This document shows positions 351 through 38,762 of a stretch of DNA of 39,050 nt, in pieces. The DNA lies in sequence record OZ035732.1. The stretch is one strand, 5' to 3'. Below the pieces are notes generated by a model that saw only the letters and a program-made list of their open reading frames with translations, did no database searches and was not told where the DNA came from. A program made the position numbers and the translations under genes. Each line of letters starts with the position of its first letter. Positions within the stretch are counted from its first letter, which is position 1. The stretch is from Kayfunavirus PDP351P3.

Positions 351-752
351 ATGAAAGATTCATACATAAGTGGCGGTTACTGGAAGGTTACTCGTAATGG
401 TAAGGTTCATGGAGTTCATAGATTACTATGGGAGGAAGCCTACGGTCCTATCCCAGATGGTTACGTCATAGACCACATTGATAGGAATCCTATGAATAAC
501 GAACTGTCAAACCTTAGGTGCATACCTAAAGGCGCAAACAAGGCTAACACTGTATCCTCTAGGGAACTACCTAAAGGCGTATACTCTAGGTTTGCTAAAC
601 GTCAAGGTATTACTGTGTACTATGGTGACATTAGGATGGGAGGTAAGAAAGAAACGCACGCTCCTACTAAGAATCTGATGGAAGTCGTGGAATGGGCTAA
701 GTCAACTCATAGTAGAATGCTTAAGGAGACATATGGTATTTCAAATGTTTAA
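351..752 (+). CDS. free-standing HNH homing endonuclease
   Basis: 133-aa ORF with AAGGAGG RBS; motif H-R-LLWEE-YGPIP-GYVIDHID-N-NN-SNLR shared with the two other HNH ORFs in the window; AT-richer codon usage (AGG, ATA, CTA) than neighbours; inserted between genes 18 and 18.5. Confidence 0.85.
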   Translation: MKDSYISGGYWKVTRNGKVHGVHRLLWEEAYGPIPDGYVIDHIDRNPMNNELSNLRCIPKGANKANTVSSRELPKGVYSRFAKRQGITVYYGDIRMGGKKETHAPTKNLMEVVEWAKSTHSRMLKETYGISNV

Positions 753-3039: not shown

Positions 3040-3062
3040 ACTTAACTATCACTATAGGGAAG
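3040..3062 (+). promoter_or_regulatory. phage RNAP promoter (phiOR-like, downstream of gene 19)
   Basis: ACTTAACTATCACTATA-GGGAAG; matches the 11-member promoter family of this genome; predicted +1 G at 3057. Confidence 0.7.
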
Positions 3063-3638: not shown

Positions 3639-3840
3639 TCTCACAGTTCAAGAACCTCAAGTCTCCCCATAGGCCCTCTTTCAGTCCAGACCAAAGGCCC
3701 TACCCCAGTCTATCATAAGGTTGGACCGATGGTCAAGACGTTAGGTCGACGATAGGTCTAGGCTATGGCTTAGGGAAGGACGATAGGTTGGGACTATGGG
3801 TCTTCTTTGAGTCTCTATCTGTATCAGACCTTGAGTCACT
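3639..3840 (+). repeat. probable direct terminal repeat (single collapsed copy) containing the physical genome ends
   Basis: Begins with TCTCACAGT, the sequence that starts the T7 genome as I recall it; internal similarity to the T7 terminal repeat (TCCCCCATAGG, TCTCTATCTGT); flanked on both sides by ACCTACAGT arrays; boundaries approximate. Confidence 0.45.
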
Positions 3841-3925
3841 ACCTACAGTCTAACTACCTACAGTCTAACTACCTACAGTCATCGACCATCGGTACTGCCG
3901 CTACCTACAGTCAGAGACCTACAGT
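3836..3925 (+). repeat. short tandem repeat array (CTAACTACCTACAGT x3 plus 2 extra CCTACAGT), SRL-like
   Basis: Three tandem 15-bp units followed by two more CCTACAGT copies, directly right of the putative terminal repeat. Confidence 0.6.
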
Positions 3926-4406: not shown

Positions 4407-4916
4407 ATGGAACGTAACGCTAACGCATACTATGAGCTGCTGGCTGCAACTGTTGAAGCATTTAACGAGCGCATTCAGTACGACGAAATAGCTGAAGGCG
4501 ATGACTACTGCGATGCGCTGCATGAAGTCGTAGACGATATGGTTCCGCACTATTACCACGAGATTTTCACGGTGATGGCTGCCGATGGTATTGACCATGA
4601 GTTCGAAGACTCTGGGCTGATGCCTGAGACCAAGGACGTAACGTGTATACTACAAGCTCGCATCTATGAGGCACTGTATAATGATGTGTCTAATAGCTCG
4701 GATGTGGTATGGTTCGAGCCTGAAGAGGGCGACGAAAAGGCTGAATATTGGGTAGTTGATGCTAGAACAGGCGAGATAATTGAGCAAGCTGTATCACTTT
4801 ACGAGGCTATTGCATGTGCAAAAGACCTCTATGAGGCAGGTTTTCACATGCAGGTCGAAGACATCAATGATAACGTAGTGTTCGACCCTGCGTCTGCTGA
4901 GGAGGACTGCGAGTGA
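4407..4916 (+). CDS. ocr: Ocr-like DNA-mimic anti-restriction protein (gene 0.3) with about 55-aa C-terminal extension
   Basis: 169-aa highly acidic ORF; residues 1-105 align with recalled T7 Ocr ([43 protein letters not shown] vs [43 protein letters not shown]); first gene after the early promoters. Confidence 0.85.
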
Positions 4917-5889: not shown

Positions 5890-5912
5890 ACTTAACTATC
5901 ACTATAGGACTC
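5890..5912 (+). promoter_or_regulatory. phage RNAP promoter immediately upstream of the RNA polymerase gene
   Basis: ACTTAACTATCACTATA-GGACTC; predicted +1 G at 5907; followed by repeat-rich leader (AAGTGAAAGAC x2, GACTTTAAGT x2). Confidence 0.7.
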
Positions 5913-5981: not shown

Positions 5982-8663
5982 ATGAGCGTCATATCTATTG
6001 ACAAACATGACTTCTCTGATGTGTCGAACGCTATTGAGCCGTTTAACCTGCTGGCCGACCACTATGGGCAAGACCTTGCAGTCAAACAGCTTCAGCTTGA
6101 GCATGAGGCATACACTGAAGGCGAGCGACGTTTCATCAAGAACCTTGAGCGACAGACTGAGCGCGGGGAACTGGCAGACAATCAGGTCGCCAAGCCTTTG
6201 ATGCAGACTCTTGTACCTAAGATTGCGCAAGCCGTCAGGGAGTGGCATGAAGGTCCAGACGGGAAGCTGTCAACCTCTCGTCCGAGCGTAGCGTTCACCA
6301 TGTTGAGCACTGAAGAGAAGGTCGTTAAAGACCGCTCTCTACGCATCTCCTGTGAGTCTGCTGCGGTTATCATACTGAAGGTCATCCTCTCCAAGCTTGT
6401 CAAGCCTGAAGGGATACCGATTACACCGATGGCCTCCGCGATAGGCCGTACACTTGAGGATGAAATCCGCTTCGGTCGCATCCGAGACAAGGAGCAGGAG
6501 CACTTCAAGAAGGCGATAGCTGAGAACCTGAACAAGCGAGCCGGCGCATCCTACAAGAAGGCCTACATGCAAGCTGTTGAGACATCCATGCTAGAGCAGG
6601 GTCAACTGGAAGATGCGTGGGGGACTTGGAGTCCGACCGAGGCTGTCCACGTTGGCATCAAGATGCTTGAGATTGTCATCCAGTCAACACAACTGGTCGA
6701 GCTTAAGCGCTACGGTGCTGGCAATGCAGCGGCTGACGTTGAGATGGTCCACCTGTCAGACTTCTGGGTAAAGAAGATGGCACAACGAGGATTCAGCCTT
6801 GCGGGTATCGCTCCGGTCTACCAACCTTGCGTCGTTCCACCTAAGCCGTGGACTGGTGTCGTAGGAGGTGGGTACTGGGCCAAAGGACGCAGACCACTAC
6901 CACTGATTCGCTTAGGGTCTAAGTCTGCGGTGGCACGTTACGAAGACGTGTACATGCCTGAAGTCTATGACGCTGTGAATATCATCCAGAATACGCCTTG
7001 GAAAGTGAACAAGAAGGTTCTGGACGTGGTGAACATGGTCGAGAAGCTGAATAACACGCCTATTGACGACATCCCTCAGATGGAACCACTGAAGCCTGAA
7101 GACTATGCGGGTGAGACTGAAGAGGAACTCAAGGCGTGGAAGAAGGCTGCTGCTGGTATCTACCGCCGAGAGAAGGCCCGGCAGTCACGCAGATTGTCAC
7201 TGAGCTTTATCGTTAACCAAGCGAACAAGTTCTCTCAGTTCAAGGCCATCTGGTTCCCGTACAACATGGACTGGCGAGGTCGCGTCTACGCTGTGCCGAT
7301 GTTCAACCCTCAGGGTAACGACATGCAAAAGGGTCTCCTGACTCTGGCAGTCGGTAAGCCTATTGGTGCTGATGGTTTCAAATGGCTGAAGGTCCACGGT
7401 GCAAACTGCGCGGGTATTGATAAAGTAACCTTCGAGGAGCGCATAAAGTGGGTTGAAGACAACCACGATAACATCATGGCTACCGCTAAGGCACCGATGG
7501 ACAGCATTGAGTGGTGGGGCAAGTTAGACTCTCCGTTCTGCTTCCTTGCGTTCTGCTTCGAGTATGCTGGCGTAATGTACCACGGTTTGTCTTACTCCTG
7601 TTCGCTGCCGATAGCTTTCGATGGGTCCTGCTCTGGGATTCAGCACTTTAGTGCGATGCTTCGTGATCACATCGGTGGACATGCGGTAAACCTGACGCCT
7701 TCCGGTAAGGTCCAAGACATTTACCGCATCGTGTCTGACCGCATTGAGGAGGAGCTTAAAGTCCTGCTGGTTAACGGTACGGATAACGAGATGGTGACTC
7801 ACGAGGACAAGAAAACGGGTGAGATTACCGAGCGTCTCAAGCTGGGGACACGAGAGCTGGCCCGTCAATGGCTGACATACGGTATGTCACGCAAGGTCAC
7901 TAAGCGCTCAGTAATGACTCTGGCCTACGGGTCGAAAGAGTATGGCTTCGCAGACCAAGTGTACGAGGACATCGTGATGCCAGCGATTGACTCAGGGTCT
8001 GGCGCTATGTTCACTGAGCCAAGCCAAGCGTCTCGCTTCATGGCTAAGATGATTTGGGAAGCTGTGAGCGTGACCGTAGTTGCTGCGGTAGACGCTATGA
8101 AGTGGCTTCAAGGTGCCGCCAAGCTGCTGGCTGCTGAAGTGAAGGACAAGAAGACTGGAGAAATCCTTAAGCCTTGCCTTCCGGTACACTGGGTCACACC
8201 TGATGGTTTCCCGGTCTGGCAGGAATACCGCAAGAAGGATACCACTCGTCTTAACCTGATGTTCTTAGGGTCATTCAACCTTCAGCCTACAGTCAATAAA
8301 GGCATGAAGAAAGAGCTGGACAAGCACAAGCAGGAGTCAGGCATTAGCCCGAACTTCGTCCACTCACAAGATGGTAGCCACCTCCGAAAGACTGTAGTCC
8401 ACACACATCGTAAGTACGGAGTGATGTCATTCGCAGTGATTCATGATAGCTTCGGGACCATCCCGGCTGACGCTGAGTATCTATTCCGTGGTGTCCGCGA
8501 GACGATGGTCGAGACCTACCGCGACAACGATGTGCTGCTTGACTTCTACGAGCAGTTTGAATACCAGCTTCATGAGAGCCAGCGCGACAAGCTGCCAGAG
8601 CTTCCGAAGAAAGGTAAACTGAATATCGAAGACATCTTGTCTTCAGACTTTGCATTCGCTTAA
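5982..8663 (+). CDS. single-subunit DNA-directed RNA polymerase (T7 gene 1-like)
   Basis: 893-aa ORF; long colinear identity blocks with recalled T7 RNAP (FPYNMDWRGRVYAV, MFNPQGNDM, DGSCSGIQHFSAMLRD, RSVTKRSVMTLAYGS, HDSFGT, terminal FAFA). Confidence 0.98.
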   Translation: MSVISIDKHDFSDVSNAIEPFNLLADHYGQDLAVKQLQLEHEAYTEGERRFIKNLERQTERGELADNQVAKPLMQTLVPKIAQAVREWHEGPDGKLSTSRPSVAFTMLSTEEKVVKDRSLRISCESAAVIILKVILSKLVKPEGIPITPMASAIGRTLEDEIRFGRIRDKEQEHFKKAIAENLNKRAGASYKKAYMQAVETSMLEQGQLEDAWGTWSPTEAVHVGIKMLEIVIQSTQLVELKRYGAGNAAADVEMVHLSDFWVKKMAQRGFSLAGIAPVYQPCVVPPKPWTGVVGGGYWAKGRRPLPLIRLGSKSAVARYEDVYMPEVYDAVNIIQNTPWKVNKKVLDVVNMVEKLNNTPIDDIPQMEPLKPEDYAGETEEELKAWKKAAAGIYRREKARQSRRLSLSFIVNQANKFSQFKAIWFPYNMDWRGRVYAVPMFNPQGNDMQKGLLTLAVGKPIGADGFKWLKVHGANCAGIDKVTFEERIKWVEDNHDNIMATAKAPMDSIEWWGKLDSPFCFLAFCFEYAGVMYHGLSYSCSLPIAFDGSCSGIQHFSAMLRDHIGGHAVNLTPSGKVQDIYRIVSDRIEEELKVLLVNGTDNEMVTHEDKKTGEITERLKLGTRELARQWLTYGMSRKVTKRSVMTLAYGSKEYGFADQVYEDIVMPAIDSGSGAMFTEPSQASRFMAKMIWEAVSVTVVAAVDAMKWLQGAAKLLAAEVKDKKTGEILKPCLPVHWVTPDGFPVWQEYRKKDTTRLNLMFLGSFNLQPTVNKGMKKELDKHKQESGISPNFVHSQDGSHLRKTVVHTHRKYGVMSFAVIHDSFGTIPADAEYLFRGVRETMVETYRDNDVLLDFYEQFEYQLHESQRDKLPELPKKGKLNIEDILSSDFAFA

Positions 8664-8965: not shown

Positions 8966-8988
8966 CCTAAACTATCACTATAGGATTA
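8966..8988 (+). promoter_or_regulatory. phage RNAP promoter (phi1.1-like; candidate primary replication origin region)
   Basis: CCTAAACTATCACTATA-GGATTA; position after gene 1 corresponds to T7 phi1.1A/B, which flank the primary origin. Confidence 0.75.
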
Positions 8989-10584: not shown

Positions 10585-10620
10585 AACCCAGTGGTCTTCG
10601 CGGACTGCTGGGTTTCTTTG
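10585..10620 (+). terminator. putative intrinsic terminator for host RNAP (TE-like) after ligase
   Basis: Imperfect hairpin AACCCAGTGGTC...GACTGCTGGGTT followed by TCTTTGCTTTG; same location as T7 TE. Confidence 0.5.
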
Positions 10621-10660: not shown

Positions 10661-10683
10661 CCTAAGCTATCACTATAGGACAA
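10661..10683 (+). promoter_or_regulatory. phage RNAP promoter (phi1.5/1.6-like)
   Basis: CCTAAGCTATCACTATA-GGACAA (G at -12). Confidence 0.7.
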
Positions 10684-11378: not shown

Positions 11379-11533
11379 CTGAGGTTGAGAAGAAGTACAT
11401 CGTGGAGCTTGAGGGTCGCGTTCAGTCCTTCGAGGTTCCGGTGTACGCAAAGTCTCTTGAAGAGGCTACCATGAAGTCCCAAGAGTATGAGGACGCTGGG
11501 TTTGTGGTCGGACGGATTCGTCCTGAGACCTAA
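11375..11533 (+). CDS. host RNA polymerase inhibitor (T7 gp2-like)
   Basis: 52-aa ORF (below ORF-track cutoff); [14 protein letters not shown]...[14 protein letters not shown] matches recalled T7 gp2 (SFEVPIYAETLDEA...PAGFEVTRVRP). Confidence 0.75.
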
Positions 11534-11551
11534 ACTATCACTGTAGGACAT
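11529..11551 (+). promoter_or_regulatory. phage RNAP promoter variant (phi2.5-like)
   Basis: CTAAACTATCACTGTA-GGACAT; one core mismatch (G at -3). Confidence 0.55.
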
Positions 11552-13667: not shown

Positions 13668-13883
13668 ATGATTAAACTTATCGAATTTCTTGGTCGTCTG
13701 GTGGTGCGTGGTTATCGTCGTGCTGCGGCTATGGAACGAAAGGTAGAAAAGAAGACTGCTGATGGTGCGGCTGATGCTGCTGCTCTAGCTGACAAGCTGA
13801 CCATCGCGTCACTGGAAGCTGGGATGAAGGCACGTCAAGCTGACACCAAAGCTGACCAGTTGTCTCAGTTCTTCAAAGCCTAA
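13668..13883 (+). CDS. hypothetical Ala-rich protein (71 aa)
   Basis: ATG 13668 with AAAGGAG RBS (track ORF 13578 extends upstream without RBS); no homolog recognised. Confidence 0.5.
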   Translation: MIKLIEFLGRLVVRGYRRAAAMERKVEKKTADGAADAAALADKLTIASLEAGMKARQADTKADQLSQFFKA

Positions 13884-13901
13884 ACTATCACCTTAGGGAT
13901 G
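13879..13901 (+). promoter_or_regulatory. weak or variant phage RNAP promoter upstream of gene 4
   Basis: CCTAAACTATCACCTTA-GGGATG; upstream half matches consensus, -4 and -3 deviate (CT instead of TA). Confidence 0.4.
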
Positions 13902-15923: not shown

Positions 15924-17939
15924 ATGTTTGACCTTAAGGATATTTGGGGTTCGGACATCGAGACCAACGGTCTCCTTGATACAGTATCCCAGTTTCACTG
16001 TGGGGTCCTGATTAACGCCGAGTCGAATGAGACCCTTAAGTATGGGGTAGCTCCGATGGTCGGTATCATCGGGGGCTTCAAAGAGTATGTGCAGAAGGTG
16101 GAAGAGATTGCCACATCACCTGATGGTATGCTGGTATTCCACAACGGTATCAACTATGACGTCCCGGCTATTGACAAGCTGAAGCGTCTGTACTTTGGTA
16201 AACGCTTTAACTTCCCGAAACACAAGATGATTGATACCTTGGTTCTGGGCCGCTTGATGTACCCAAACATTAAGTTCTCAGACATGGGCGCGGTGAAATC
16301 TGGTCGTCTGCCGCCTAAGATGATGGGACGCCAGTCTCTTGAGGCTTGGGGCTATCGTCTAGGTGAGATGAAGGGTGAGTACAAACACGATTACGTTGCC
16401 AAGTGCAAGGCCGAAGGTATCGAATATAAGTCTGGGGACGAATGGTTGTTCCCATCTCAGGAGATGCTGGACTATAACGTTCAAGACGTTGTGGTCACGC
16501 TGGCGTTGTTCAAGAAGTTCCTGACTGACAAGTATTACTTCCAGTCTGAACAGTTCGCTTTCGAACAGATTTATGCGTTGCGTCTGGAACATGATGCTGC
16601 GTGGACCTGCGCGAAGATGGAGCGTAATGGCTATCCGATGAACACCGAGATGGTCGAAGGCTTATATCGTGAACTCACTGTCAAACGTGCGGAGTTACTG
16701 GACAAGCTGCGCTCTACTTTCGGTAGCTGGTACGCACCAAAGGGAGGCAAGGAGTTCTTCAGGCATCCACGGACAGGTAAGGACCTTCCGAAGTACCCGA
16801 GAGTCGTGTATCCTAAGGTAGGTGGCATCTTTAAGAAGCCGAAGAACAAAGCTCAACGCTTAGGTCTTGAACCTTGTGAACTCGATACGCGAGACACGAT
16901 GGAGGGAGCACCCTTCACGCCAATCACTTACGTTGAGTTTAATCCGGGAAGCGGAGACCACTTAGCGAAAGTCCTGATGGAGCGTGGTTGGGAGCCTGTG
17001 GACTTCACTGACACTGGGAAACCGGTAGTTGATGACGAGACGTTAGAACACGTTAAGTTGCCAGACGCAGAGGCTCAGGCTTGCGTAGAGCTGGTCCGTG
17101 AGTATCTGGTAGTCCAGAAGAGAATCGGGCAGGCTGCTGAAGGTAAGAACGCATGGTTGAAACTTGTAGGTCCAGACGGACGTATGCATGGTTCAATCAA
17201 TCCATGTGGTGCAGTAACAGGACGTGCGACCCATAGTTCACCAAACATGGCTCAGGTCCCTGCTAACGGTGCTCCGTATGGTGAGACTTGCCGTGGTGCT
17301 TTCGGTGCAGCGTGGAACAAGAAGGACGGTAAGCCAGACCCTTGGATTCAAGTAGGCGTGGATGCTTCAGGTCTTGAGCTTCGTTGTCTGGGGAACCGAG
17401 CGGCTCCGTTTGATGGTGGAGATTATGCGAAGACTGTGGTCGAAGGTGACATCCACTGGGCCAACGCAGTCAACGCTGGGTTAGCACCTAACGTCCCACG
17501 CGACAAGTCGAACCACGACCACGAGGCTTTCCGTAACAACGCTAAGACGTTCATCTATGCGTTCCTGTATGGTGCAGGGGCAGCTAAGATTGGACTGATA
17601 GTAGGCGGTGGGAAGAAGGAAGGTTCAGCTCTCATGAAGAAATTCATTGAGGGCACACCAGCCATCAAGGACCTCAGGGAAGCTGTGAGTAATACGTTAA
17701 TCTCAGACTCTAAGTGGGTAGATGGTGAGAACATCGTTAAGTGGAAACGCCGATGGTTGCGTGGACTTGATGGTCGCCGTATCCACATCCGGTCTCCACA
17801 CTCAGCACTTAACGCCTTACTTCAAGGCGATGGTGCGGTAATCTGTAAGCACTGGATTGTCGAGACTGAACGTATGCTCGAAGAGGCCGGGTATGTCCAC
17901 GGCTGGGAAGGAGACTTCGCATACATGGCATGGGTGCAT
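15924..17939 (+). CDS. DNA polymerase (T7 gene 5-like), exon 1
   Basis: 672 codons; SDIE.N.LL..V..FHCGV, HNG..YDVPA, NVQDVVVT, GSWY.PKGG.E.F.HPRTGK.LPKYPR, DASGLELRC, AKTFIY.FLYGAG, KWKRRW..GLDGR..H.RSPH.ALN.LLQ, FAYMAWVH match recalled T7 gp5; frame then runs into intron. Confidence 0.9.
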
Positions 17940-18540
17940 AAACTATCTCATTGTGCACATTAAATCTGGTGAACTCGGTGAAACCCTTCTAGGGCAATAC
18001 CGAGCCAAGCCATAGGGAGGATATATGAGAGGCAAGAAGTTAATCCTTGCGACCACAGAGAGTGGTTGTATCATCCCTACGTCACACAAACTTAATGCTG
18101 ATGGTTATTTCCGAAAGAGGACTAACGGTGTCCTAGAGATGTATCACAGGACAGTATGGAAGGAACAGCACGGAGATATACCAGAAGGGTATGAAGTAGA
18201 CCACAAGTGTAGGAACAGGGCATGCTGTAATGCAGAGCATCTCCAGTTACTAGAAGGGTCTGAGCATGCAGTCAAGACAAACAGTGAACGCTACGCTGAC
18301 CGTAAAGAGTCTGCGAGGGAATACTGGTTGGAGACTGGATGTACAGGAACACACTTAGGTGAGAAGTTTGGTGTTACGTTCTCTGCCGCGTGTAAGTGGA
18401 TTAGAGAGTGGAAGGCGTAGAGACTATCCGAAAGGAGTAGGGCCGAGGGTGAGATTCCCTCGTTACCCGAAGCGCCAGACAGTCAACTCAAAGGCTGATG
18501 ATATAGTCCGACACTCCTAGTAATAGGAGAATACAGAAAG
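17940..18540 (+). mobile_element. group I intron interrupting DNA polymerase motif C, carrying an HNH homing endonuclease gene
   Basis: 5' exon ends in U (17939), intron ends in G (18540); exon GUGCAU can pair with intron GUGCAC (17953-17958) as P1; P7 strands AGAGACUA (18419-18426) and GAUAUAGUCC (18500-18509); flanking exons rejoin in frame to give ...AWVH-DEIQV... Confidence 0.8.
18025..18420 (+). CDS. intron-encoded HNH homing endonuclease
   Basis: 131-aa ORF with GGGAGG RBS inside the intron; HNH family motif (YHRTVWKEQHGDIPEGYEVDHKCRNRACCNAEHLQL) shared with ORFs 351-752 and 21443-21835; AGG/AGA-rich codon usage. Confidence 0.85.
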   Translation: MRGKKLILATTESGCIIPTSHKLNADGYFRKRTNGVLEMYHRTVWKEQHGDIPEGYEVDHKCRNRACCNAEHLQLLEGSEHAVKTNSERYADRKESAREYWLETGCTGTHLGEKFGVTFSAACKWIREWKA

Positions 18541-18696
18541 GATGAGATTCAAGTAGCTTGTCGTACTCAGGAGATTGCCGAAGAAGTCGTCAAGATTGCT
18601 CAACTTGCTATGCGTAAGGTGGGTGAGTTCTATAACTTTAAATGTGTTCTTGATACGGAGGGTAAGATTGGACCCACGTGGAAAGAATGTCATTAA
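18541..18696 (+). CDS. DNA polymerase (T7 gene 5-like), exon 2
   Basis: 51 codons DEIQVACRTQEIAEEVVKIAQLAMRKVGEFYNFKCVLDTEGKIGPTWKECH*, colinear with recalled T7 gp5 C-terminus (DEIQVGCRTEEIA...RCLLDTEGKMGPNWAICH). Confidence 0.85.
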   Translation, partial: DEIQVACRTQEIAEEVVKIAQLAMRKVGEFYNFKCVLDTEGKIGPTWKECH

Positions 18697-20200: not shown

Positions 20201-20223
20201 ACTAAACTATCACTATAGGGACT
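20201..20223 (+). promoter_or_regulatory. phage RNAP promoter (phi6.5-like)
   Basis: ACTAAACTATCACTATA-GGGACT. Confidence 0.75.
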
Positions 20224-20284
20224 TTAGGACCTAAGATATGACTATAAGATAGACTTTAGTCTTAACTTAAAGAGGAGATTCAAG

Positions 20285-21205: not shown

Positions 21206-21446
21206 ATCAATCAGTAAGGCTTTCAAGAAAGTGGTGAAAAGTACGTTAGGGACAGTGGGTCTTGGCTCTGACGATGCTCCTAAGGTTGTTGAGGCTCAGA
21301 CCCCAGCAGCACCAGTGGAAGTACCGAACGACCAAGTGGAGGATGTGGATACTGAAACAACCGCATCTGATGAGAAGAAAGTGAAGCGTTCTGGTAAGCG
21401 TAGCCTTCAGGTCTCTCGCACCTCTGGTGGAGGCATCTCTATATGA
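21198..21446 (+). CDS. gp7.3-like tail/adsorption protein
   Basis: 82 aa, GTG start with AAGGAG RBS; MGK...KK..K, central VEVP, KRSGKRSLQVSRTSGGGISI vs recalled T7 gp7.3 ...GGKKSLSVARSSGGGINI. Confidence 0.75.
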   Translation: MGKSISKAFKKVVKSTLGTVGLGSDDAPKVVEAQTPAAPVEVPNDQVEDVDTETTASDEKKVKRSGKRSLQVSRTSGGGISI

Positions 21447-21835
21447 CACCATGTCATGAATGGGGTGGATATTGCACCAAGGATGGCTACGGTGAAACTA
21501 GGGTAGATGGGCGCAAGGTTCGCGTTCATCGCCTAGAGTGGACGAAACACTACGGACCCATTCCGCATGACAAAGTGGTTCGCCACAAGTGTGACAACCC
21601 TAAGTGTTTTAATATTGAACACCTAGAGTTAGGAACAACACAAGATAACACGGCTGACAGAGTGTCTCGTGGTCGAAGCGCCAAAGGAGAGGATAACGGT
21701 AACGCCATCCTCACTATTGATATTGTCAATGAGATTCGCGAGAGTGGCATGTCTCAGCGCAAAATAGCGAAGACCTATGGAGTGTCACAGTCTACCGTAT
21801 CTAAAATCAAACGCAATGTAACGTGGAGGGCATAA
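21443..21835 (+). CDS. HNH endonuclease with C-terminal helix-turn-helix (gene 7.7 position)
   Basis: 130 aa; VHRLEWTKHYGPIPHDKVVRHKCDNPKCFNIEHLEL (HNH); C-terminal QRKIAKTYGVSQSTVSKIKRN (HTH-like); T7 gene 7.7 is also an HNH-type gene. Confidence 0.85.
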   Translation: MTPCHEWGGYCTKDGYGETRVDGRKVRVHRLEWTKHYGPIPHDKVVRHKCDNPKCFNIEHLELGTTQDNTADRVSRGRSAKGEDNGNAILTIDIVNEIRESGMSQRKIAKTYGVSQSTVSKIKRNVTWRA

Positions 21836-21836
21836 C

Positions 21837-23405
21837 ATGGCAGAACGTGAAGGATTTGCGGCTGAGGGGGCGAAGGCAGTTTATGATAGGCTAAAGAACG
21901 GACGACAGCCTTACGAGACCCGCGCACAAAACTGCGCTGCCGTGACCATCCCCTCTCTATTTCCTAAGGAGTCAGATAACTCCTCTACGGAATACGTGAC
22001 GCCGTGGCAAGCTGTGGGTGCTCGCTGCTTGAACAACTTGGCTGCAAAGCTGATGTTGGCATTATTCCCTCAGTCACCGTGGATGCGACTGACAGTCTCC
22101 GAATATGAGGCCAAGACCTTGAGTCAGGACTCAGAGGCTGCTGCTCGTGTTGACGAAGGGCTTGCTATGGTCGAGCGTGTGTTGATGGCCTACATGGAGA
22201 CTAACAGTTTCCGTGTCCCATTGTTTGAGGCTCTTAAGCAGCTTATCGTCTCCGGTAACTGTCTGCTCTACATTCCAGAGCCTGAACAGGGAACCTACAG
22301 TCCTATGCGAATGTACCGCTTAGTGTCCTACGTTGTTCAACGTGATGCTTTCGGTAACATCTTACAGATTGTGACTCTCGACAAGGTAGCGTTTAGTGCT
22401 CTACCGGAAGACGTGAAGTCTCAACTAAACGCAGACGACTATGAGCCTGACACCGAGCTGGAAGTGTATACGCACATCTACCGTCAGGACGACGAGTATC
22501 TGCGCTACGAGGAAGTGGAAGGAATTGAGGTAGCAGGGACCGAGGGTTCTTACCCACTGACTGCATGTCCGTACATCCCGGTACGAATGGTTCGACTGGA
22601 TGGTGAAGACTATGGTCGTTCTTACTGCGAGGAGTATCTGGGAGACCTGAACTCGCTGGAGACGATTACAGAAGCTATCACCAAAATGGCTAAGGTAGCC
22701 TCCAAGGTGGTGGGCCTCGTTAACCCGAACGGTATCACGCAACCCCGTCGTCTGAACAAGGCGGCTACAGGTGAGTTCGTGGCTGGTCGAGTTGAGGACA
22801 TCAACTTCCTGCAACTGACGAAAGGTCAGGACTTTACGATTGCCAAGTCGGTGGCTGACGCTATCGAGCAACGTTTAGGATGGGCCTTCCTTCTTAATAG
22901 TGCTGTTCAGCGTAATGCCGAGCGAGTCACTGCTGAAGAGATTCGTTATGTTGCTGGCGAACTGGAGGCGACCTTAGGTGGCGTGTACTCAGTACAATCC
23001 CAAGAGCTTCAGTTACCTATCGTCCGTGTGTTGATGAACCAGCTTCAGTCTGCTGGCATGATTCCTGACCTTCCGAAAGAAGCGGTAGAGCCTACGGTAT
23101 CCACTGGTCTAGAAGCGTTAGGTCGTGGTCAGGACTTGGAGAAGCTAACTCAGGCAGTCAACATGATGACCGGGCTACAGCCTCTGCAACAGGACCCAGA
23201 CATTAACTTGCCTACCCTTAAGCTGCGACTGCTGAATGCCTTAGGCATTGACACCGCTGGTCTGCTGCTTACTCAGGACGAGAAGTTGCAACGTATGGCT
23301 GAACAATCCGCTCAAGGAGCTGTGGTCAACGGTGCGTCTGCTGCTGGTGCTAATATGGGTGCTGCTGTAGGTCAGGGAGCTGGTGAGGACATGGCTCAAG
23401 CCTAA
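21837..23405 (+). CDS. portal (head-tail connector) protein (T7 gp8-like)
   Basis: 522 aa; PYETRAQNCA..TIPSLFPK.SDN.ST.Y.TPWQAVGAR.LNNLA.KLMLALFP, RLDGE.YGRSY.EEYLGDL.SLE, ERVTAEEIRYVA.ELE.TLGGVYS..SQELQLP.VRVL match recalled T7 gp8. Confidence 0.97.
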   Translation: MAEREGFAAEGAKAVYDRLKNGRQPYETRAQNCAAVTIPSLFPKESDNSSTEYVTPWQAVGARCLNNLAAKLMLALFPQSPWMRLTVSEYEAKTLSQDSEAAARVDEGLAMVERVLMAYMETNSFRVPLFEALKQLIVSGNCLLYIPEPEQGTYSPMRMYRLVSYVVQRDAFGNILQIVTLDKVAFSALPEDVKSQLNADDYEPDTELEVYTHIYRQDDEYLRYEEVEGIEVAGTEGSYPLTACPYIPVRMVRLDGEDYGRSYCEEYLGDLNSLETITEAITKMAKVASKVVGLVNPNGITQPRRLNKAATGEFVAGRVEDINFLQLTKGQDFTIAKSVADAIEQRLGWAFLLNSAVQRNAERVTAEEIRYVAGELEATLGGVYSVQSQELQLPIVRVLMNQLQSAGMIPDLPKEAVEPTVSTGLEALGRGQDLEKLTQAVNMMTGLQPLQQDPDINLPTLKLRLLNALGIDTAGLLLTQDEKLQRMAEQSAQGAVVNGASAAGANMGAAVGQGAGEDMAQA

Positions 23406-23422
23406 ACTATCACTATAGGAAC
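23400..23422 (+). promoter_or_regulatory. phage RNAP promoter (phi9-like)
   Basis: CCTAAACTATCACTATA-GGAACA; starts inside the portal stop region. Confidence 0.75.
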
Positions 23423-23493
23423 AACGTCTGGTCTACAATTTGTAGGTTTCTAGTCCGTTGTTCCTACCATTTCAATCAAAGGAGAATGACTCA

Positions 23494-24379: not shown

Positions 24380-24402
24380 ACTAAACTATCACTATAGGGA
24401 GA
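24380..24402 (+). promoter_or_regulatory. phage RNAP promoter (phi10-like, strong late promoter)
   Basis: ACTAAACTATCACTATA-GGGAGACC; +1 to +6 GGGAGA identical to T7 class III consensus; about 100-nt leader containing AAACTTTATC (epsilon-enhancer-like) and AGGAGA RBS. Confidence 0.85.
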
Positions 24403-25683: not shown

Positions 25684-25722
25684 AACCCCTTGGGTGCCTT
25701 CGGGTGCTTGAGGGGTTTTTTG
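25684..25722 (+). terminator. T-phi-like terminator downstream of capsid gene
   Basis: AAACCCCTTGGGTGCCTTCGGGTGCTTGAGGGGTTTTTTG; GC-rich hairpin plus U-tract; 3' half CTTGAGGGGTTTTTTG identical to T7 T-phi as recalled. Confidence 0.8.
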
Positions 25723-28927: not shown

Positions 28928-28950
28928 CCTTAACTATCACTATAGGGACT
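28928..28950 (+). promoter_or_regulatory. phage RNAP promoter (phi13-like)
   Basis: CCTTAACTATCACTATA-GGGACT. Confidence 0.75.
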
Positions 28951-35300: not shown

Positions 35301-36208
35301 GTAGTAAGCGTAAGTTCGATGACCGCTGGCTGAAGACAGCTGGTATCTCTGACGAGCAGTGGAAGGGCATTAAGTCCCTAATCCGTGAGTCAGTGACTCG
35401 TGGGCCAGACGGGAAGTACACCATCAAGGATAAGAAGGCGTTCAGTCAGGACCCAAGGGCTATGGACCTGTGGCGCATGGGTGACACCATAGCTGACGAA
35501 ACGTTACTCCGTCCTCATAAGCTGTCAAACATGGACGCCAAGGCTTATGGTCCTCTCGCTAAGACTGTCCTTCAGTTTAAGAACTTCGTCATCAAGTCTA
35601 TCAATGGGAGAACCATGCGCACATTCTATAACGCCACCAAGAACAACCGAGCTATTGATGCTGCGCTGTCCACTGTGATGTCTATGGGCCTTGCTGGTAT
35701 CTACTACATGGCTCAGGCACACCTCAAGGCTTACGCTATGCAGGATGGTCGTGACCGTGAGTACCTCAAGCAAGCTCTGGACCCGACGATGATTGGATAT
35801 GCAGCTCTATCACGTAGTTCACATCTTGGTGGCCCACTTGGGGTAGCTAACATTCTGGGTGGCATCGCTGGGTATGAGGACACTAAGATGCTCCGTTCGT
35901 CTATCCTACCTCGTTCGCCTACAGAGAAGCCTGAACGTGCCATCGCGTATGGTGCAGCTACAAGTGACCCTGTGATGAATGTTGTTGGTAACTTCTTGGA
36001 GCAGGTTCCAGCTTTCGGATATGCTGCTAACGTTGGGGCTACGGCTTACAACTTGGCTGGCTACCTCAAGGCTGATACTCGTGTCAACGAGCGTGACTAC
36101 ATGACCGGGATGTATAATACGTTCCGTGAACTGGTTCCGAACGACCCAATTACCCAGAAGCTGTTGCTTGGAACGTTTGAGGAGCAAGGTATCCACATCA
36201 AGGACTAA
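32321..36208 (+). CDS. internal virion protein D (T7 gp16-like core) with non-T7 N-terminal domain
   Basis: 1295 aa; from about residue 200 colinear with recalled T7 gp16 (TRWN.H.W..EELD.IR, GAGVDPL.YVP, LRSPTGMQSGASGK, GTYVPHVY, FLEARNLFDSD, GDIAIM, GKTTK, ILTGRARR, RSPFTK.LNGTTNYLLDA, PRAMDLWR, NNRAIDAALS, LVPNDP.TQ.L); first about 160 aa (MATRGIRNNNPGNIR...) do not resemble the T7 N-terminal SLT domain. Confidence 0.93.
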   Translation: MATRGIRNNNPGNIRVSKDQWEGMTGDDGAFVTFDSPESGVRALGKNLLSYGRQGYDSIEKIINRWAPPNENDTKAYIDSVVAATGIPATQSLDLSDPDTLSSLAQAISFHETGSRYDPEVYQKGVARALNGISPKTPPVSANVFDALTEGLKAKPKVALGENLPTAAGLNIEGQSPEAPNESFGEMFYKATGETMQEREDRSTWFGFGAATEADVKNSMVGVAIRAGQTEDSLDVIGDVFNPTRWNNHKWSREELDQIRNAGVLPQYYGVITGGSPQNLTELINLALENQKLDQERAKAGTGAQLAAGVIGAGVDPLTYVPIAGQVGKGGKLINKMFTVAAQSGALAGASEIARTSVAGGDAHVAEAILGGVLFGGGMTAIADGLGRALGRNTNEFAGPATRLEARETARNVDGQDLSRLPIQEGEQTFSHQGVKFADVPNEPGSVRLEDGSILIGENPLNPKTRQVFDEVIEPERAAAGVNLGGLTEIGLKLLRSENPEIRGVAADLVRSPTGMQSGASGKIGTTASDVFERLRAVDHRFYNDLDDAVTEALKDPYFQTAFWRDSGAFRQDIYQRVSMAIEDGSGNLKAELTPGELKVYDLLKNQFDAKREMMENPAMFGRPDAQSIFPGSRFKGTYVPHVYSNQMKELYIKELGSPEALQEAIKKSWLTSYASRPEVKKRVDEALLEADPTLTPEGLAAAVDKYANDRAYGISHTGQFERSSVMEENINGLVGLENNSFLEARNLFDSDMSIVLPNGQTFSVNNLREWDMDKIVPAYNRRVNGDIAIMAGTGKTTKDMKDLVETMMNKAGDDGKLKGEVSTLRDTLKILTGRARRDGADDAAFATVMRTMTDLAFFAKNAYMGVQNLTEIGGMLARGNVRALLHGVPMFRDLAFRNKKVGASEIKDLHNVIFGKELDDSIRPSKQDVIDRLRSYSDLSRGTATALGTAKYYTGELAVRSPFTKVLNGTTNYLLDAGRQGFLSDIVEHSLTGSKRKFDDRWLKTAGISDEQWKGIKSLIRESVTRGPDGKYTIKDKKAFSQDPRAMDLWRMGDTIADETLLRPHKLSNMDAKAYGPLAKTVLQFKNFVIKSINGRTMRTFYNATKNNRAIDAALSTVMSMGLAGIYYMAQAHLKAYAMQDGRDREYLKQALDPTMIGYAALSRSSHLGGPLGVANILGGIAGYEDTKMLRSSILPRSPTEKPERAIAYGAATSDPVMNVVGNFLEQVPAFGYAANVGATAYNLAGYLKADTRVNERDYMTGMYNTFRELVPNDPITQKLLLGTFEEQGIHIKD

Positions 36209-36226
36209 ACTATCACTATAGGAAAC
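36204..36226 (+). promoter_or_regulatory. phage RNAP promoter (phi17-like)
   Basis: ACTAAACTATCACTATA-GGAAAC; overlaps gp16 stop. Confidence 0.75.
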
Positions 36227-36272: not shown

Positions 36273-38762
36273 ATGTCCACGATTACACAATTCCCTTCAG
36301 GAAACACTCAGTACAGGATTGAGTTCGACTACCTATCCAGAACGTTTGTTGTTGTTACTCTGGTGAATAGCTCTAACCTTACCCTGAACCGTGTACTGGA
36401 AGTTGGTCGAGATTACCGATTCCTTAATCCAACGATGATTGAGATGTTGGTTGACCAATCAGGTTTCGACATCGTTCGTATTCACCGTCAGACTGGAACT
36501 GACTTAGTGGTAGACTTCAGGAATGGCTCAGTGTTGACAGCTAGTGACCTGACTAATGCAGAGCTTCAGGCTATCCATATTGCAGAAGAAGGTCGAGACC
36601 AAACGGTTGACTTAGCGAAGGAATATGCCGATGCTGCTAGTAGCTCTGCTGGCAACGCTAAGGATAGCGAGGACGAAGCACGCCGAATCGCTGATAGTAT
36701 CAAGACATCTGGTCAAATTGGCTATATTACCCGCCGCTCCTTCGAGAAAGGCTTCAACGTTACAACATGGAACGAGGTCCTGCTATGGGAAGAGGATGGC
36801 GAATATTACCGTTGGGACGGTGACTTTCCTAAAACCGTACCTGCTGGCTCAACTCCTGAAACTTCAGGTGGAGTTGGTTTAGGTGCATGGGTTAGCGTTG
36901 GTGATGCGTCACTTAGAGGGCAAATATCTTCTAAATACGGATTATCAATTATTGGTGGGTTTGAATCAGTAGATGATATGAGATCCTATTCATCAGTTGC
37001 AAGTTTGCCAGACGGCACAAGGGCTTTCTTGTTTAGTTTTTATGCCGGGAAAAGCATTGGTGGAGGTATATTTCAATGGCACAGTAACGCAACAACTGAT
37101 GATGATGGCTTCTCTGTTATTAAACCATCAGCTGTTTCAGGAGCAGGTCGATGGATTAACATTAAACGTGGCAGACTAACCCCGGAAGAATGTGGGTGCG
37201 TACCTAATGACCCATCATTTGACAACGGCGTACCGCTTAATAGATGGGCGTCACAGCAGCATTGTATAGGTTCCGTTGGCGTCTTTTATAAAACAACTGC
37301 TTTAATTCCGTCACCGCCAGCGTACCCACAGTATATAGACGCTAAAGGCATGAGGCTGATGACTACTGTGGCTGACGTAAATGGGGTGGAACTCTCCTCT
37401 GATATGTCTCGACGTATCAATATTGAGGGTCTTGAGTCGTTCGGTGACCCGTCATTAACAGTAACGAATCGCAATAAAGCCAACGGCTTCTATATCGCTG
37501 GCTGTAGGGAAGTAGTCCTAAAAAACATTCGCTGTGAGGGATGGAAAAACGCTGGTGTCTGGTGGTTTGAAGTCAACAATATGACTATCGACGGATTTAT
37601 TGGATGGAGAAATGATTGGGATGGTTCCACACTATTCTCCTCTGGTGGGGATTTAGTTGAATGGACTTCGAGCGACGGGTTGGCGAAATCCTGCAGTATA
37701 ACTAATTTCGCGTGTTTTTCAGATGGCAGCCAAAGCATATCCATAAACTCATTATCTTTTGGGCGAAATGTACTAATCAGTAACGGACGCTGTTTCACGT
37801 ATGACGCTACAGATTTTACACCAAAAACTCGGACTAACATAAAAGCACGACATGGAATCACGATAGGTTACAACTCCAACCAGACGTATGGTGGTGGTGT
37901 TAAAGTTAGTAACGTCATTATCAGAGATAAGGGGTGGACTGGCATTTGCCGCTCTGGTGGTTTAGATGGCGCTGTACGATATCAACCAGCTACCATTTCT
38001 AACGTTTCAGTGTACGATTGCGGTTTTGGTATAAACCAAGACAACATTGGTGCTGGTATTCTGTTTGGTGACGTAGTTGACGGAGACATGATCAACAACT
38101 GTTATGTGGAAGGTTTCGCCAACGCTAATAACGGTGCGTACAAAATTCAGGATTCTGTAGGTACAGGGAAGCTGACAATAGCTAACTGTGTTGATAAAGG
38201 TTCTGCTGGATACGGTGTACACATAGCGACAGAATCGGTTAACGTAATGGTTATCGGCCACAGAAGCATAGAACCAACCGGTGCAGGTATTTTCCTTGAG
38301 GCAAAAGGCGGCGCAACACTATTCCGGTCGCATACTGTTGACGGATGTCGTATTGAGCGTGTGACGGACGGTTACGGAATATTTTTGTCTAACGGCGTAA
38401 TTAGTGCGAATATCAAAAACAATGAAATCCGTGGTACTTCTACGAACTCCACAACAAACTGTGCTATTCGTGTAAACCAAAATGGGCAAAACATAAATAT
38501 CAGAGGAAATCAGATTTACGGTTTTGCATACGGGTTGTGGTACAACACCTATGTGAACACCACAACGGTATTCCCGTGGGGTAACAACCAATTCTTCGGC
38601 TGCATTAACGCACACCGTTTCGCAAGGACGACAGGAACCAGTGTTGCTAAGGTAGAACCTAATTATTACGACGGCGCTACTACAAATCAATTCTCTAATG
38701 GTGGCGTAGGAACGAGTAACGGAACGGAAGAATTTAGAGTTAATGGCACTCCCGTGACCTAA
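36273..38762 (+). CDS. tailspike: T7 gp17-like N-terminal tail-attachment domain fused to a parallel beta-helix (putative polysaccharide depolymerase) module
   Basis: 829 aa; residues 1-150 resemble recalled T7 gp17 N-terminus (EFDYLSR.FVVVTL, DYRF, LVDF.NGS.L.A.DL..A.LQ..H.AEE.RD); remainder has beta-helix-type repeats (NNCYVEGF, NNEIRGTS, IRGNQIYG) and is AT-richer than the rest of the genome. Confidence 0.9.
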   Translation: MSTITQFPSGNTQYRIEFDYLSRTFVVVTLVNSSNLTLNRVLEVGRDYRFLNPTMIEMLVDQSGFDIVRIHRQTGTDLVVDFRNGSVLTASDLTNAELQAIHIAEEGRDQTVDLAKEYADAASSSAGNAKDSEDEARRIADSIKTSGQIGYITRRSFEKGFNVTTWNEVLLWEEDGEYYRWDGDFPKTVPAGSTPETSGGVGLGAWVSVGDASLRGQISSKYGLSIIGGFESVDDMRSYSSVASLPDGTRAFLFSFYAGKSIGGGIFQWHSNATTDDDGFSVIKPSAVSGAGRWINIKRGRLTPEECGCVPNDPSFDNGVPLNRWASQQHCIGSVGVFYKTTALIPSPPAYPQYIDAKGMRLMTTVADVNGVELSSDMSRRINIEGLESFGDPSLTVTNRNKANGFYIAGCREVVLKNIRCEGWKNAGVWWFEVNNMTIDGFIGWRNDWDGSTLFSSGGDLVEWTSSDGLAKSCSITNFACFSDGSQSISINSLSFGRNVLISNGRCFTYDATDFTPKTRTNIKARHGITIGYNSNQTYGGGVKVSNVIIRDKGWTGICRSGGLDGAVRYQPATISNVSVYDCGFGINQDNIGAGILFGDVVDGDMINNCYVEGFANANNGAYKIQDSVGTGKLTIANCVDKGSAGYGVHIATESVNVMVIGHRSIEPTGAGIFLEAKGGATLFRSHTVDGCRIERVTDGYGIFLSNGVISANIKNNEIRGTSTNSTTNCAIRVNQNGQNINIRGNQIYGFAYGLWYNTYVNTTTVFPWGNNQFFGCINAHRFARTTGTSVAKVEPNYYDGATTNQFSNGGVGTSNGTEEFRVNGTPVT

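What the first reader, a model, noticed from the sequence alone, without database searches (positions are those of the whole stretch)
8220..8330. Phage promoter family with its own consensus, matched by a specificity-loop substitution in the RNA polymerase
Eleven sites share C(C/T)TAAACTATCACTATAGG(G/A)A, at 3040, 5890, 8966, 10661, 11529, 13879, 20201, 23400, 24380, 28928 and 36204. Relative to T7 (TAATACGACTCACTATAGGGAGA), -8 to +1 is the same but -12 to -9 reads ACTA instead of CGAC. In the RNAP specificity loop, alignment to T7 gives TRLNLMFLGSFNLQP versus T7 TRLNLMFLGQFRLQP. The residue aligned with T7 R756, which contacts the -9 base pair in T7, is Asn here, and Q754 is Ser. That is the change expected if promoter and polymerase co-evolved to a different -12 to -9 recognition code.
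Basis: partly seen in the sequence, partly recalled or inferred. Interest (0 to 1): 0.6.

Follow-up and report, generated by a model that had tools for sequence, protein, structure and literature searches.

The report
K1F-type phage promoters and polymerase
This is the genome of a K1F-like (Kayfunavirus) coliphage: its 11 phage promoters and the matching recognition loop in its RNA polymerase are real, but the same pair is already annotated in close relatives and already used as the orthogonal "K1F" system in synthetic biology.

Summary
Eleven + strand sites match (C/A)CT(A/T)AACTATCACTATAGG(G/A), against 0 expected by chance. Each lies 30-185 nt upstream of a gene start. The polymerase (5982-8663) aligns without gaps to T7 RNAP across the specificity loop. 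T7 Q754 corresponds to Ser764 and R756 to Asn766, while R746, N748 and Q758 are retained.

The window is a circularly permuted Kayfunavirus genome whose RNAP is 99% identical to those of K1F and EcoDS1. Both relatives carry the same 11 sites at the same gene positions, and GenBank EU734172 already annotates them as phage promoters.

T7 RNAP carrying 754S/756N/761V transcribes a T7 promoter whose -12..-8 is ACTAT, orthogonally to T7, T3 and N4-type pairs. Native K1F RNAP with PK1F is in use as an expression and mutator system. A 2025 covariation study treats K1F as one of nine specificity clusters.

The only under-explored point is a second difference. The K1F group has an invariant C at -16, and its "AT-rich recognition loop" is remodelled and weakly basic.

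Verdict: already known, low interest.

The parts
5982..8663 (+). Gene 1: T7-like single-subunit RNA polymerase, 893 aa
   Evidence: ORF. Pfam RNA_pol (E 7.7e-106) plus RPOL_N. T7 RNAP in PDB matches at E=0 and 1275 bits over the full length. It is 99% aa identical to K1F and EcoDS1 gp1, 64% to T7 and T3, and 59% to K11.
8226..8321 (+). Coding region of the specificity loop (equivalent to T7 residues 739-770). Ser764 is at 8271-8273 (T7 Q754) and Asn766 at 8277-8279 (T7 R756).
   Evidence: Ungapped alignments. Across the T7 744-761 stretch the loop is identical to K1F and EcoDS1.
6258..6290 (+). Equivalent of the T7 AT-rich recognition loop (T7 93-101, KAKRGKRPT). Here it reads DGKLSTSRPSV, which is longer and weakly basic.
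   Evidence: MAFFT alignments. The function in this phage is inferred from T7.
6312..6344 (+). Insertion of about 11 aa (EEKVVKDRSLR) relative to T7 and T3, just after the AT-rich loop. Boundaries are approximate.
   Evidence: Alignment gaps. K11 has a different, longer insertion at the same place.
3040..3062 (+). Phage promoter phiOR (-17..+6; predicted start 3057), downstream of gene 19
   Evidence: Syntenic with the EcoDS1 annotated 'phiOR'.
5890..5912 (+). Phage promoter 75 nt upstream of the polymerase gene itself (predicted start 5907)
   Evidence: Syntenic with the EcoDS1 annotated 'phi' at 2244-2266 and with K1F 2474.
8966..8988 (+). Phage promoter upstream of gene 1.1
10661..10683 (+). 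Phage promoter phi1.6, just after the early terminator
11529..11551 (+). Phage promoter phi2.5 (variant CACTGTAGG), overlapping the end of gene 2
   Evidence: The same variant is present in K1F and EcoDS1.
13879..13901 (+). Phage promoter upstream of gene 4 (variant CACCTTAGG)
   Evidence: The same variant is present in K1F and EcoDS1.
20201..20223 (+). Phage promoter phi6.5
23401..23423 (+). Phage promoter phi9 (perfect consensus), overlapping the end of gene 8
24380..24402 (+). Phage promoter phi10 (major capsid gene); initiates GGGAGA as in T7 class III
28928..28950 (+). Phage promoter phi13
36204..36226 (+). Phage promoter phi17 (tail spike gene), overlapping the end of gene 16
10585..10614 (+). 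Early terminator (TE)-like hairpin after the ligase gene
   Evidence: 13-bp stem plus T-run. Same position as the EcoDS1 annotated TE.
25697..25714 (+). Terminator-like hairpin after gene 10 (Tphi position)
   Evidence: Same position as the EcoDS1 annotated terminator after 10A. This is a pattern match only.

Best explanation
The window is a circularly permuted Kayfunavirus (K1F-like, T7 supergroup) genome.

How it most likely works. After host RNA polymerase makes the early transcripts, the phage's own single-subunit RNA polymerase (gene 1) transcribes the middle and late genes from 11 promoters of the K1F type, (C/A)CT(A/T)AACTATCACTATAGG(G/A), starting at the first G. As in T7, the -4..+1 part is the melting and initiation region, which is shared with T7. 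The beta-hairpin specificity loop reads -12..-7 in the major groove.

What differs from T7. Within the contact stretch (T7 745-760) the loop differs from T7 only by Q754S and R756N. This goes with ACTA instead of CGAC at -12..-9, so the enzyme uses its own promoters and not T7-type ones.

Basis for each step. Shown here: the sites, their positions, the loop alignment, and synteny with annotated relatives. Shown in the literature: the K1F loop is sufficient to retarget T7 RNAP to ACTAT, and native K1F RNAP with PK1F is orthogonal. Inferred: that this particular, 99% identical enzyme behaves the same way, and which atoms of Asn766 touch which base.
For: Sites. There are 11 sites, all on the + strand, with 0 expected by chance. 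The PWM scores show a gap of more than 20 bits to the next candidate. Every site lies 30-185 nt upstream of an ATG that has a Shine-Dalgarno sequence.

Relatives. K1F, EcoDS1 and IMM-002 have the same sites at the same gene positions and with the same site-specific variants. EU734172 annotates its 11 sites as phage promoters.

Polymerase. The RNAP is 99% identical to K1F and EcoDS1 with an identical contact loop. The alignment to T7 is ungapped over the loop.

Loop and promoter pairing. Pairs differ coherently across T7, T3, K11, UNO-SLW2 and the K1F group. The window contains no T7-type promoter and T7 contains no K1F-type core.

Literature. The K1F loop graft into T7 RNAP is active on ACTAT and orthogonal (PMC3458549; PMC11880802 Table 2). 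Native K1F RNAP with PK1F is orthogonal to MmP1 and VP4 (PMC12218169). R746, N748, R756 and Q758 are the base-contacting residues in T7, and position 756 covaries with -10 and -9 (PMC11880802).
Against: There are no transcription data for this particular phage.

The residue-to-base mapping is not one-to-one. K11 has Asn at 756 with C at -9. N748 is unchanged although -11 and -10 differ from T7.

The three-substitution graft was weaker than T7 (17-fold against 42-fold induction). A later measure rated its orthogonality at only about 8. In a split-RNAP context it needed M750R (PMC4299498). Together these suggest that other parts of the native enzyme or promoter also contribute.
Confidence: 0.95

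Rival explanations
1. The specificity loop is only half of the story. A second co-evolved module, the remodelled N-terminal 'AT-rich recognition loop' together with the -17..-13 element (C/A)CT(A/T)A and its invariant C-16, contributes substantially to discrimination between own and foreign promoters.
For: C-16, T-15 and A-13 are invariant in all 11 window sites and in K1F, EcoDS1 and IMM-002. T7, T3, K11 and UNO-SLW2 have only A or T at -17..-13.

The loop reads DGKLSTSRPSV in the K1F group. The strongly basic equivalents are KAKRGKRPT (T7), ASKKGRKPS (T3), ANARGKKPR (K11) and MTKVRRKSV (UNO-SLW2).

Temme's PK1F kept T7's TAATA and T7's N-terminal domain and was comparatively weak.
Against: Only five lineages were compared, so this is a correlation and not a test. 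The graft with T7's upstream element and N-terminal domain does work, so this module is not required for ACTAT recognition. The full-length covariation analysis reported only the specificity loop as strongly coupled.
Confidence: 0.3
2. R756N alone sets the new specificity. Q754S is a neutral passenger substitution and not part of the recognition code.
For: Covariation analysis identifies positions 748, 756 and 758 as the determinants, not 754. T7 Q754 is not among the four base-contacting residues listed there. K11 keeps Q754 yet has a different specificity.
Against: S754 is conserved together with N756 in every Kayfunavirus RNAP examined. The published graft changed both residues, so they were never separated in the texts I could read. 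Supplementary data were not available.
Confidence: 0.45
3. The repeated 21-23-mer is not a promoter but some other dispersed element, such as a homing-endonuclease target, or a replication or packaging signal.
For: None specific. Only that no transcript data exist for this phage.
Against: The -8..+1 core is identical to the T7 promoter. All copies are co-oriented with the genes and sit just upstream of start codons at the positions of T7, T3 and K11 promoters. The same sequence drives transcription by K1F-type polymerases in reporter assays.
Confidence: 0.01

Closest known systems
Coliphage K1F gene 1 RNA polymerase and its promoters (NC_007456), and the derived T7(K1F)/PK1F and native K1F RNAP/PK1F synthetic-biology parts
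   Same: The RNAP is 99% aa identical. The loop TTRLNLMFLGSFNLQPTV is identical. The same 11 promoter sites occur at the same gene positions with the same variants. The ACTAT binding region is the one used in PK1F.
   Different: One residue just outside the contact stretch differs (NKGM against NKGT). The overall genome is about 93-95% nt identical to its nearest database relatives. The tail spike differs. Engineered PK1F uses T7's TAATA upstream, whereas the natural sites have (C/A)CT(A/T)A.
Coliphage EcoDS1 (EU734172), annotated phage promoters
   Same: The record annotates 11 'phi' promoters (pre-gene 1, 1.1, 1.6, 2.5, 4, 6.5, 9, 10, 13, 17, OR). These correspond one-to-one with the window's 11 sites. 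TE and the terminator after gene 10 are at the same places.
   Different: The window has three HNH endonuclease ORFs and an intron in gene 5 that EcoDS1 lacks, and a different gp17 C-terminus.
T7 RNA polymerase and T7 promoters (TAATACGACTCACTATAGGGAGA)
   Same: Same fold and domain organisation, 64% identity. Base-contacting residues R746, N748 and Q758 are retained. The promoter is identical at -8..+1. Promoter placement along a syntenic genome is the same.
   Different: Q754S and R756N in the loop. The promoter differs at -17 to -14 and at -12 to -9. The AT-rich loop is remodelled and followed by an 11-aa insertion. There is no phiOL, but there is a promoter directly upstream of gene 1. There are 11 promoters rather than 17.
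T3 RNA polymerase (N748D switch) and K11 RNA polymerase
   Same: The same principle applies: few loop substitutions go with a changed -12..-8 (T3 D748 with ACCCT; K11 K748/N756/K758 with GGRCA).
   Different: Different residues and bases are involved. K11 shares Asn756 but pairs it with C at -9.

Membership tests
K1F-type (Kayfunavirus) RNAP-promoter pair | Gene 1 protein closely related to K1F gp1 | tested here: met
   99% aa identity to K1F and EcoDS1 gp1. About 220 phage records have an RNAP at 80% identity or more; the next group is at about 64%.
K1F-type (Kayfunavirus) RNAP-promoter pair | Specificity loop with S at T7 position 754 and N at 756 (…LGSFNLQPTV) | tested here: met
   Ungapped alignments. 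Identical to K1F and to the 754S/756N/761V graft.
K1F-type (Kayfunavirus) RNAP-promoter pair | Promoter binding region ACTAT at -12..-8, followed by CACTATAGG | tested here: met
   Present in 10 of the 11 sites, with -11..-5 invariant. The exception is phi1.6, which has G at -12. Two sites have one change each in -4..-3.
K1F-type (Kayfunavirus) RNAP-promoter pair | Promoters at the conserved intergenic positions of the genus | tested here: met
   One-to-one with the EcoDS1 annotated promoters and the K1F sites.
K1F-type (Kayfunavirus) RNAP-promoter pair | The polymerase actually initiates at these sites and discriminates against T7-type promoters | not testable with these tools
   Only literature on K1F enzymes and grafts is available. 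There is nothing for this isolate.
T7-like single-subunit RNA polymerases | RNA_pol catalytic domain plus RPOL_N N-terminal domain, full-length homology to T7 RNAP | tested here: met
   Pfam PF00940 at E 7.7e-106 and PF14700 at E 2.7e-14. PDB T7 RNAP matches residues 1-883 at E=0.
T7 promoter-specificity class (CGACT with N748/R756/Q758) | Arg at 756 and CGAC at -12..-9 | tested here: not met
   Asn766 stands in place of R756. No T7-type promoter occurs in the window at up to 3 mismatches.

The most novel reading that the evidence does not exclude
K1F-group polymerases may carry a second co-evolved recognition module beside the known specificity-loop code. The N-terminal 'AT-rich recognition loop' has lost the basic R-G-K core (it reads DGKLSTSRPSV and is followed by an 11-aa insertion). 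The promoters have an invariant C·G pair at -16, whereas T7, T3, K11 and a Pseudomonas relative keep strongly basic loops and purely A/T sequence at -17..-13. If this is functional, transplanting the loop and the native upstream element should improve the activity and orthogonality of engineered T7(K1F) systems.
Probability: 0.3. Interest if true: 0.3.

Novelty: already known. Interest (0 to 1): 0.08.

Why it matters
It adds nothing to what is known. The promoters are annotated in GenBank for EcoDS1 (record EU734172). The loop-swap experiment was published in 2012. The pair is a standard orthogonal part, and the family-wide covariation was analysed and tested in 2025.

The residual value is practical. 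The natural promoters differ from the engineered PK1F at -17..-13, and the native enzyme has a different upstream-binding loop. This might explain the modest performance of the graft.

Tried and rejected
More or weaker promoters. I looked for additional promoters with a PWM on both strands. Only a degenerate site at 20230 turned up (12.5 bits against 35 or more for the real sites), so 11 is the full set.

Foreign promoter types. I searched the window for T7-type promoters and T7 for K1F-type cores. Neither exists.

The K1F genome paper. I tried to read Scholl and Merril 2005 by DOI and by a PMC id recalled from memory. It is not held. What that paper says about the promoters could therefore not be cited.

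Supplementary data. The supplements of Temme 2012 and of the 2025 NAR paper are not held. The activity of the single R756N variant on ACTAT could not be checked.

Promoter upstream of gene 1. I considered whether a phage promoter directly upstream of gene 1 is special. It is conserved in the genus, and a Pseudomonas relative (UNO-SLW2) has one too. It is not unique, though it is absent at that position in T7, T3 and K11.

Rfam. At gathering thresholds it found nothing in the window.

Sandbox limitation. The Python sandbox did not receive loci L003, L005 and L006. Those sequences were handled through the alignment tools instead.

Large database searches. No large protein-database search or structure prediction was run, because the answer did not depend on them.
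Full report
**Observation.** All are on the + strand, and 100 dinucleotide-preserving shuffles gave none. One coordinate is off by one base: 23401, not 23400. A position weight matrix built from the sites scores them at 35-43 bits. The next best positions in the window score 12.5 bits (20230, +) and 9.6 bits (- strand), so there are no additional or reverse-strand members.

The interval 8220-8330 lies in ORF 5982-8663 (893 aa) and encodes …VWQEYRKKDTTRLNLMFLGSFNLQPTVNKGMKKELDKHK…. phmmer against the PDB aligns the protein end to end with T7 RNAP (E=0, 1275 bits), with no gap anywhere near the loop. The offset there is exactly 10 residues. T7 Q754 is therefore Ser764 and T7 R756 is Asn766, while R746, N748 and Q758 are conserved (confirmed by MAFFT). 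Within T7 745-760 these are the only two differences.

**What the window is.** The polymerase gene is 95-96% nt identical to many Kayfunavirus records, including PDP351P4, Vec13, CLB_P1, EcoDS1 and SH3. The first 25 kb is about 95% identical over 90% of its length to the best of them.

tblastn with the EcoDS1 proteins maps the full T7-like gene order onto the window. The window starts in gene 18 and ends in gene 17.5. The single copy of the 178-bp terminal repeat lies at 3639-3816. The window is therefore a circularly permuted assembly of a complete genome.

At protein level the RNAP is 99% identical to those of K1F and EcoDS1, 64% to T7 and T3, and 59% to K11. In the phage collection about 220 records have an RNAP at 80% identity or more, and the next group starts near 64%.

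**The promoters are the known K1F-type set.** K1F (NC_007456) and EcoDS1 (EU734172) each give 11 matches to the same pattern. The site-specific deviations are also the same: CACTGTAGG before gene 2.5, CACCTTAGG before gene 4, and AAGCTATC before gene 1.6. IMM-002, whose RNAP is 93.6% identical, gives 10 matches and has the loop TTRLNLLFLGSFNLQPTV.

The EcoDS1 GenBank record annotates exactly 11 phage promoters: one before gene 1, then phi1.1, 1.6, 2.5, 4, 6.5, 9, 10, 13, 17 and OR. It also annotates TE after the ligase gene and a terminator after gene 10A. The window's sites map one-to-one onto these promoters. Each lies 30-185 nt upstream of an ATG preceded by a Shine-Dalgarno sequence, and three overlap the last codons of the upstream gene. 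Terminator-like hairpins occur at the two expected places, 10585-10614 and 25697-25714.

**Loop and promoter pairing across relatives.** I used the annotated promoters of T7, T3 and K11 and a de novo k-mer search in Pseudomonas phage UNO-SLW2, together with the RNAP alignment.

| Phage | Loop (T7 744-761) | -12..-8 |
|---|---|---|
| T7 | QTRLNLMFLGQFRLQPTI | CGACT |
| T3 | QKRLDMIFLGQFRLQPTI | ACCCT |
| UNO-SLW2 | …RIDLIFMGDVRLQTT… | ACCCT |
| K11 | QARLKLVFLGQANVKMTY | GG(G/A)C(A/C) |
| K1F group and window | TTRLNLMFLGSFNLQPTV | ACTAT |

The window contains no T7-type promoter at up to 3 mismatches, and T7 contains no ACTATCACTATAGG at up to 2 mismatches. This agrees with co-evolution of loop and binding region.

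It also shows that the code is combinatorial. K11 has Asn at 756 but C at -9. The K1F group keeps N748 although -11 and -10 (C, T) differ from T7 (G, A).

**Literature.** Temme et al. 2012 grouped phage RNAP beta-hairpins into 13 subfamilies and found that each subfamily has an identical promoter binding region. They replaced T7 Q744-I761 by the K1F loop and T7 -12..-7 by the K1F consensus. T7(K1F) gave 17-fold induction, against 42-fold for T7, and was orthogonal to the T7, T3 and N4 pairs (PMC3458549).

PMC11880802 lists this variant as 632S, 754S, 756N, 761V with ACTAT at positions 6-10 of an otherwise wild-type T7 promoter. It rates the orthogonality of that four-member set at 8. The same paper names R746, N748, R756 and Q758 as the base-contacting residues in T7. 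It finds that positions 748, 756 and 758 carry the covariation with -11..-8, and it treats K1F as one of nine specificity clusters, which it tested experimentally in a T7 background.

In a split-RNAP format the K1F loop needed an extra M750R mutation to be useful (PMC4299498). Native K1F RNAP with PK1F is used as an orthogonal expression and mutator system in E. coli, Halomonas and other hosts (PMC12218169).

By 99% identity and an identical loop, the results transfer to the window's enzyme. That transfer is an inference.

**Mechanism.** This follows established T7 knowledge, summarised in PMC13029058 and PMC11880802. Positions -17..-13 are bound by the N-terminal AT-rich recognition loop. Positions -12..-5 are bound by the specificity loop in the major groove. 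Positions -4..+6 form the melting and initiation region. [quoted passage not shown] Which base Asn766 contacts is not known, because no structure of a K1F-type complex turned up (one search lists only T7 and mitochondrial enzymes).

**What goes beyond the finding.** The upstream element also differs. C-16, T-15 and A-13 are invariant in all sites of the window, K1F, EcoDS1 and IMM-002. T7 has TAATA, T3 and K11 have AATTA, and UNO-SLW2 has an A/T run.

The corresponding protein loop is DGKLSTSRPSV in the K1F group. It is two residues longer, has one Lys and one Arg, and is followed by an 11-aa insertion. The equivalents elsewhere are KAKRGKRPT (T7), ASKKGRKPS (T3), ANARGKKPR (K11) and MTKVRRKSV (UNO-SLW2).

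The engineered PK1F and T7(K1F) kept T7's upstream element and N-terminal domain. The 2025 covariation paper does not discuss this region. This is a correlation over five lineages, not a test. I give it about 0.3 as a real second specificity module.

**Verdict.** Interest is low.

Noticed in passing
window 17930-18530 (gene 5: 15924-17939 and 18541-18693): The DNA polymerase gene is interrupted by about 600 nt. The insert matches the Rfam group I intron model over its full length (38 bits, E 4.9e-8, below the gathering score of 50). It contains an HNH_3 endonuclease ORF at 18025-18420. EcoDS1 gp5 residues 1-672 and 673-723 flank it exactly. K1F is reported to have a similar intron; EcoDS1 and SH3 lack it.
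   Followed up: partly
window 351-752 and 21443-21835: Two further free-standing HNH_3 homing-endonuclease ORFs are present. One lies between genes 18 and 18.5. The other lies between genes 7.3 and 8 and has a C-terminal helix-turn-helix. EcoDS1 has nothing at either position.
   Followed up: partly
window 5890-5912: A phage-type promoter sits 75 nt upstream of the polymerase gene itself, which would give positive feedback on polymerase synthesis. It is conserved in K1F, EcoDS1 and IMM-002, and Pseudomonas phage UNO-SLW2 has one too. T7, T3 and K11 instead have phiOL far upstream and none at this position. The K1F group has no phiOL.
   Followed up: partly
window 6258-6344 and position -16 of all 11 promoters: The AT-rich recognition loop equivalent is remodelled: DGKLSTSRPSV plus an 11-aa insertion, with the basic R-G-K core lost. 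This goes with an invariant C at -16, unlike the A/T-only upstream elements of T7, T3, K11 and UNO-SLW2.
   Followed up: partly
window 3639-3816 and 3838-3880: A single copy of the 178-bp terminal repeat (97.8% identical to EcoDS1) lies in the middle of the window, so the window is a circular permutation of the linear genome. Just after it are 2.9 perfect copies of a 15-bp unit, ACTACCTACAGTCTA.
   Followed up: partly
window 36273-38762: Only the first 220 aa of the tail spike gp17 (829 aa) resemble EcoDS1 gp17. The rest has Tail_spike_N and right-handed beta-helix domains, and no hit to an endosialidase family came up. Receptor specificity probably differs from that of K1F.
   Followed up: partly
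window 20230-20252: A degenerate promoter-like sequence, CCTAAGATATGACTATAAGATAG, lies 29 nt downstream of phi6.5. It scores 12.5 bits against 35 or more for the real sites. It may be a decayed duplicate.
   Followed up: no
window 4407-4916: The ocr-like gene 0.3 product is 169 aa, against 110 aa in EcoDS1. Only the first 107 residues or so are homologous.
   Followed up: no
L005 (K11) gene 1 and promoters: K11 RNAP also has Asn at T7 position 756, but its promoters have C at -9. Residue 756 therefore does not map one-to-one onto the -9 base.
   Followed up: yes
phage collection records: RefSeq names the gene 1 product of K1F, EcoDS1, Vec13 and others 'N4-like RNA polymerase', which is a misnomer for a T7-like enzyme. 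Record MT350292 'Enterococcus phage EFA-1' carries a Kayfunavirus RNAP gene 94.6% identical to the window's, which suggests a mislabelled host.
   Followed up: no
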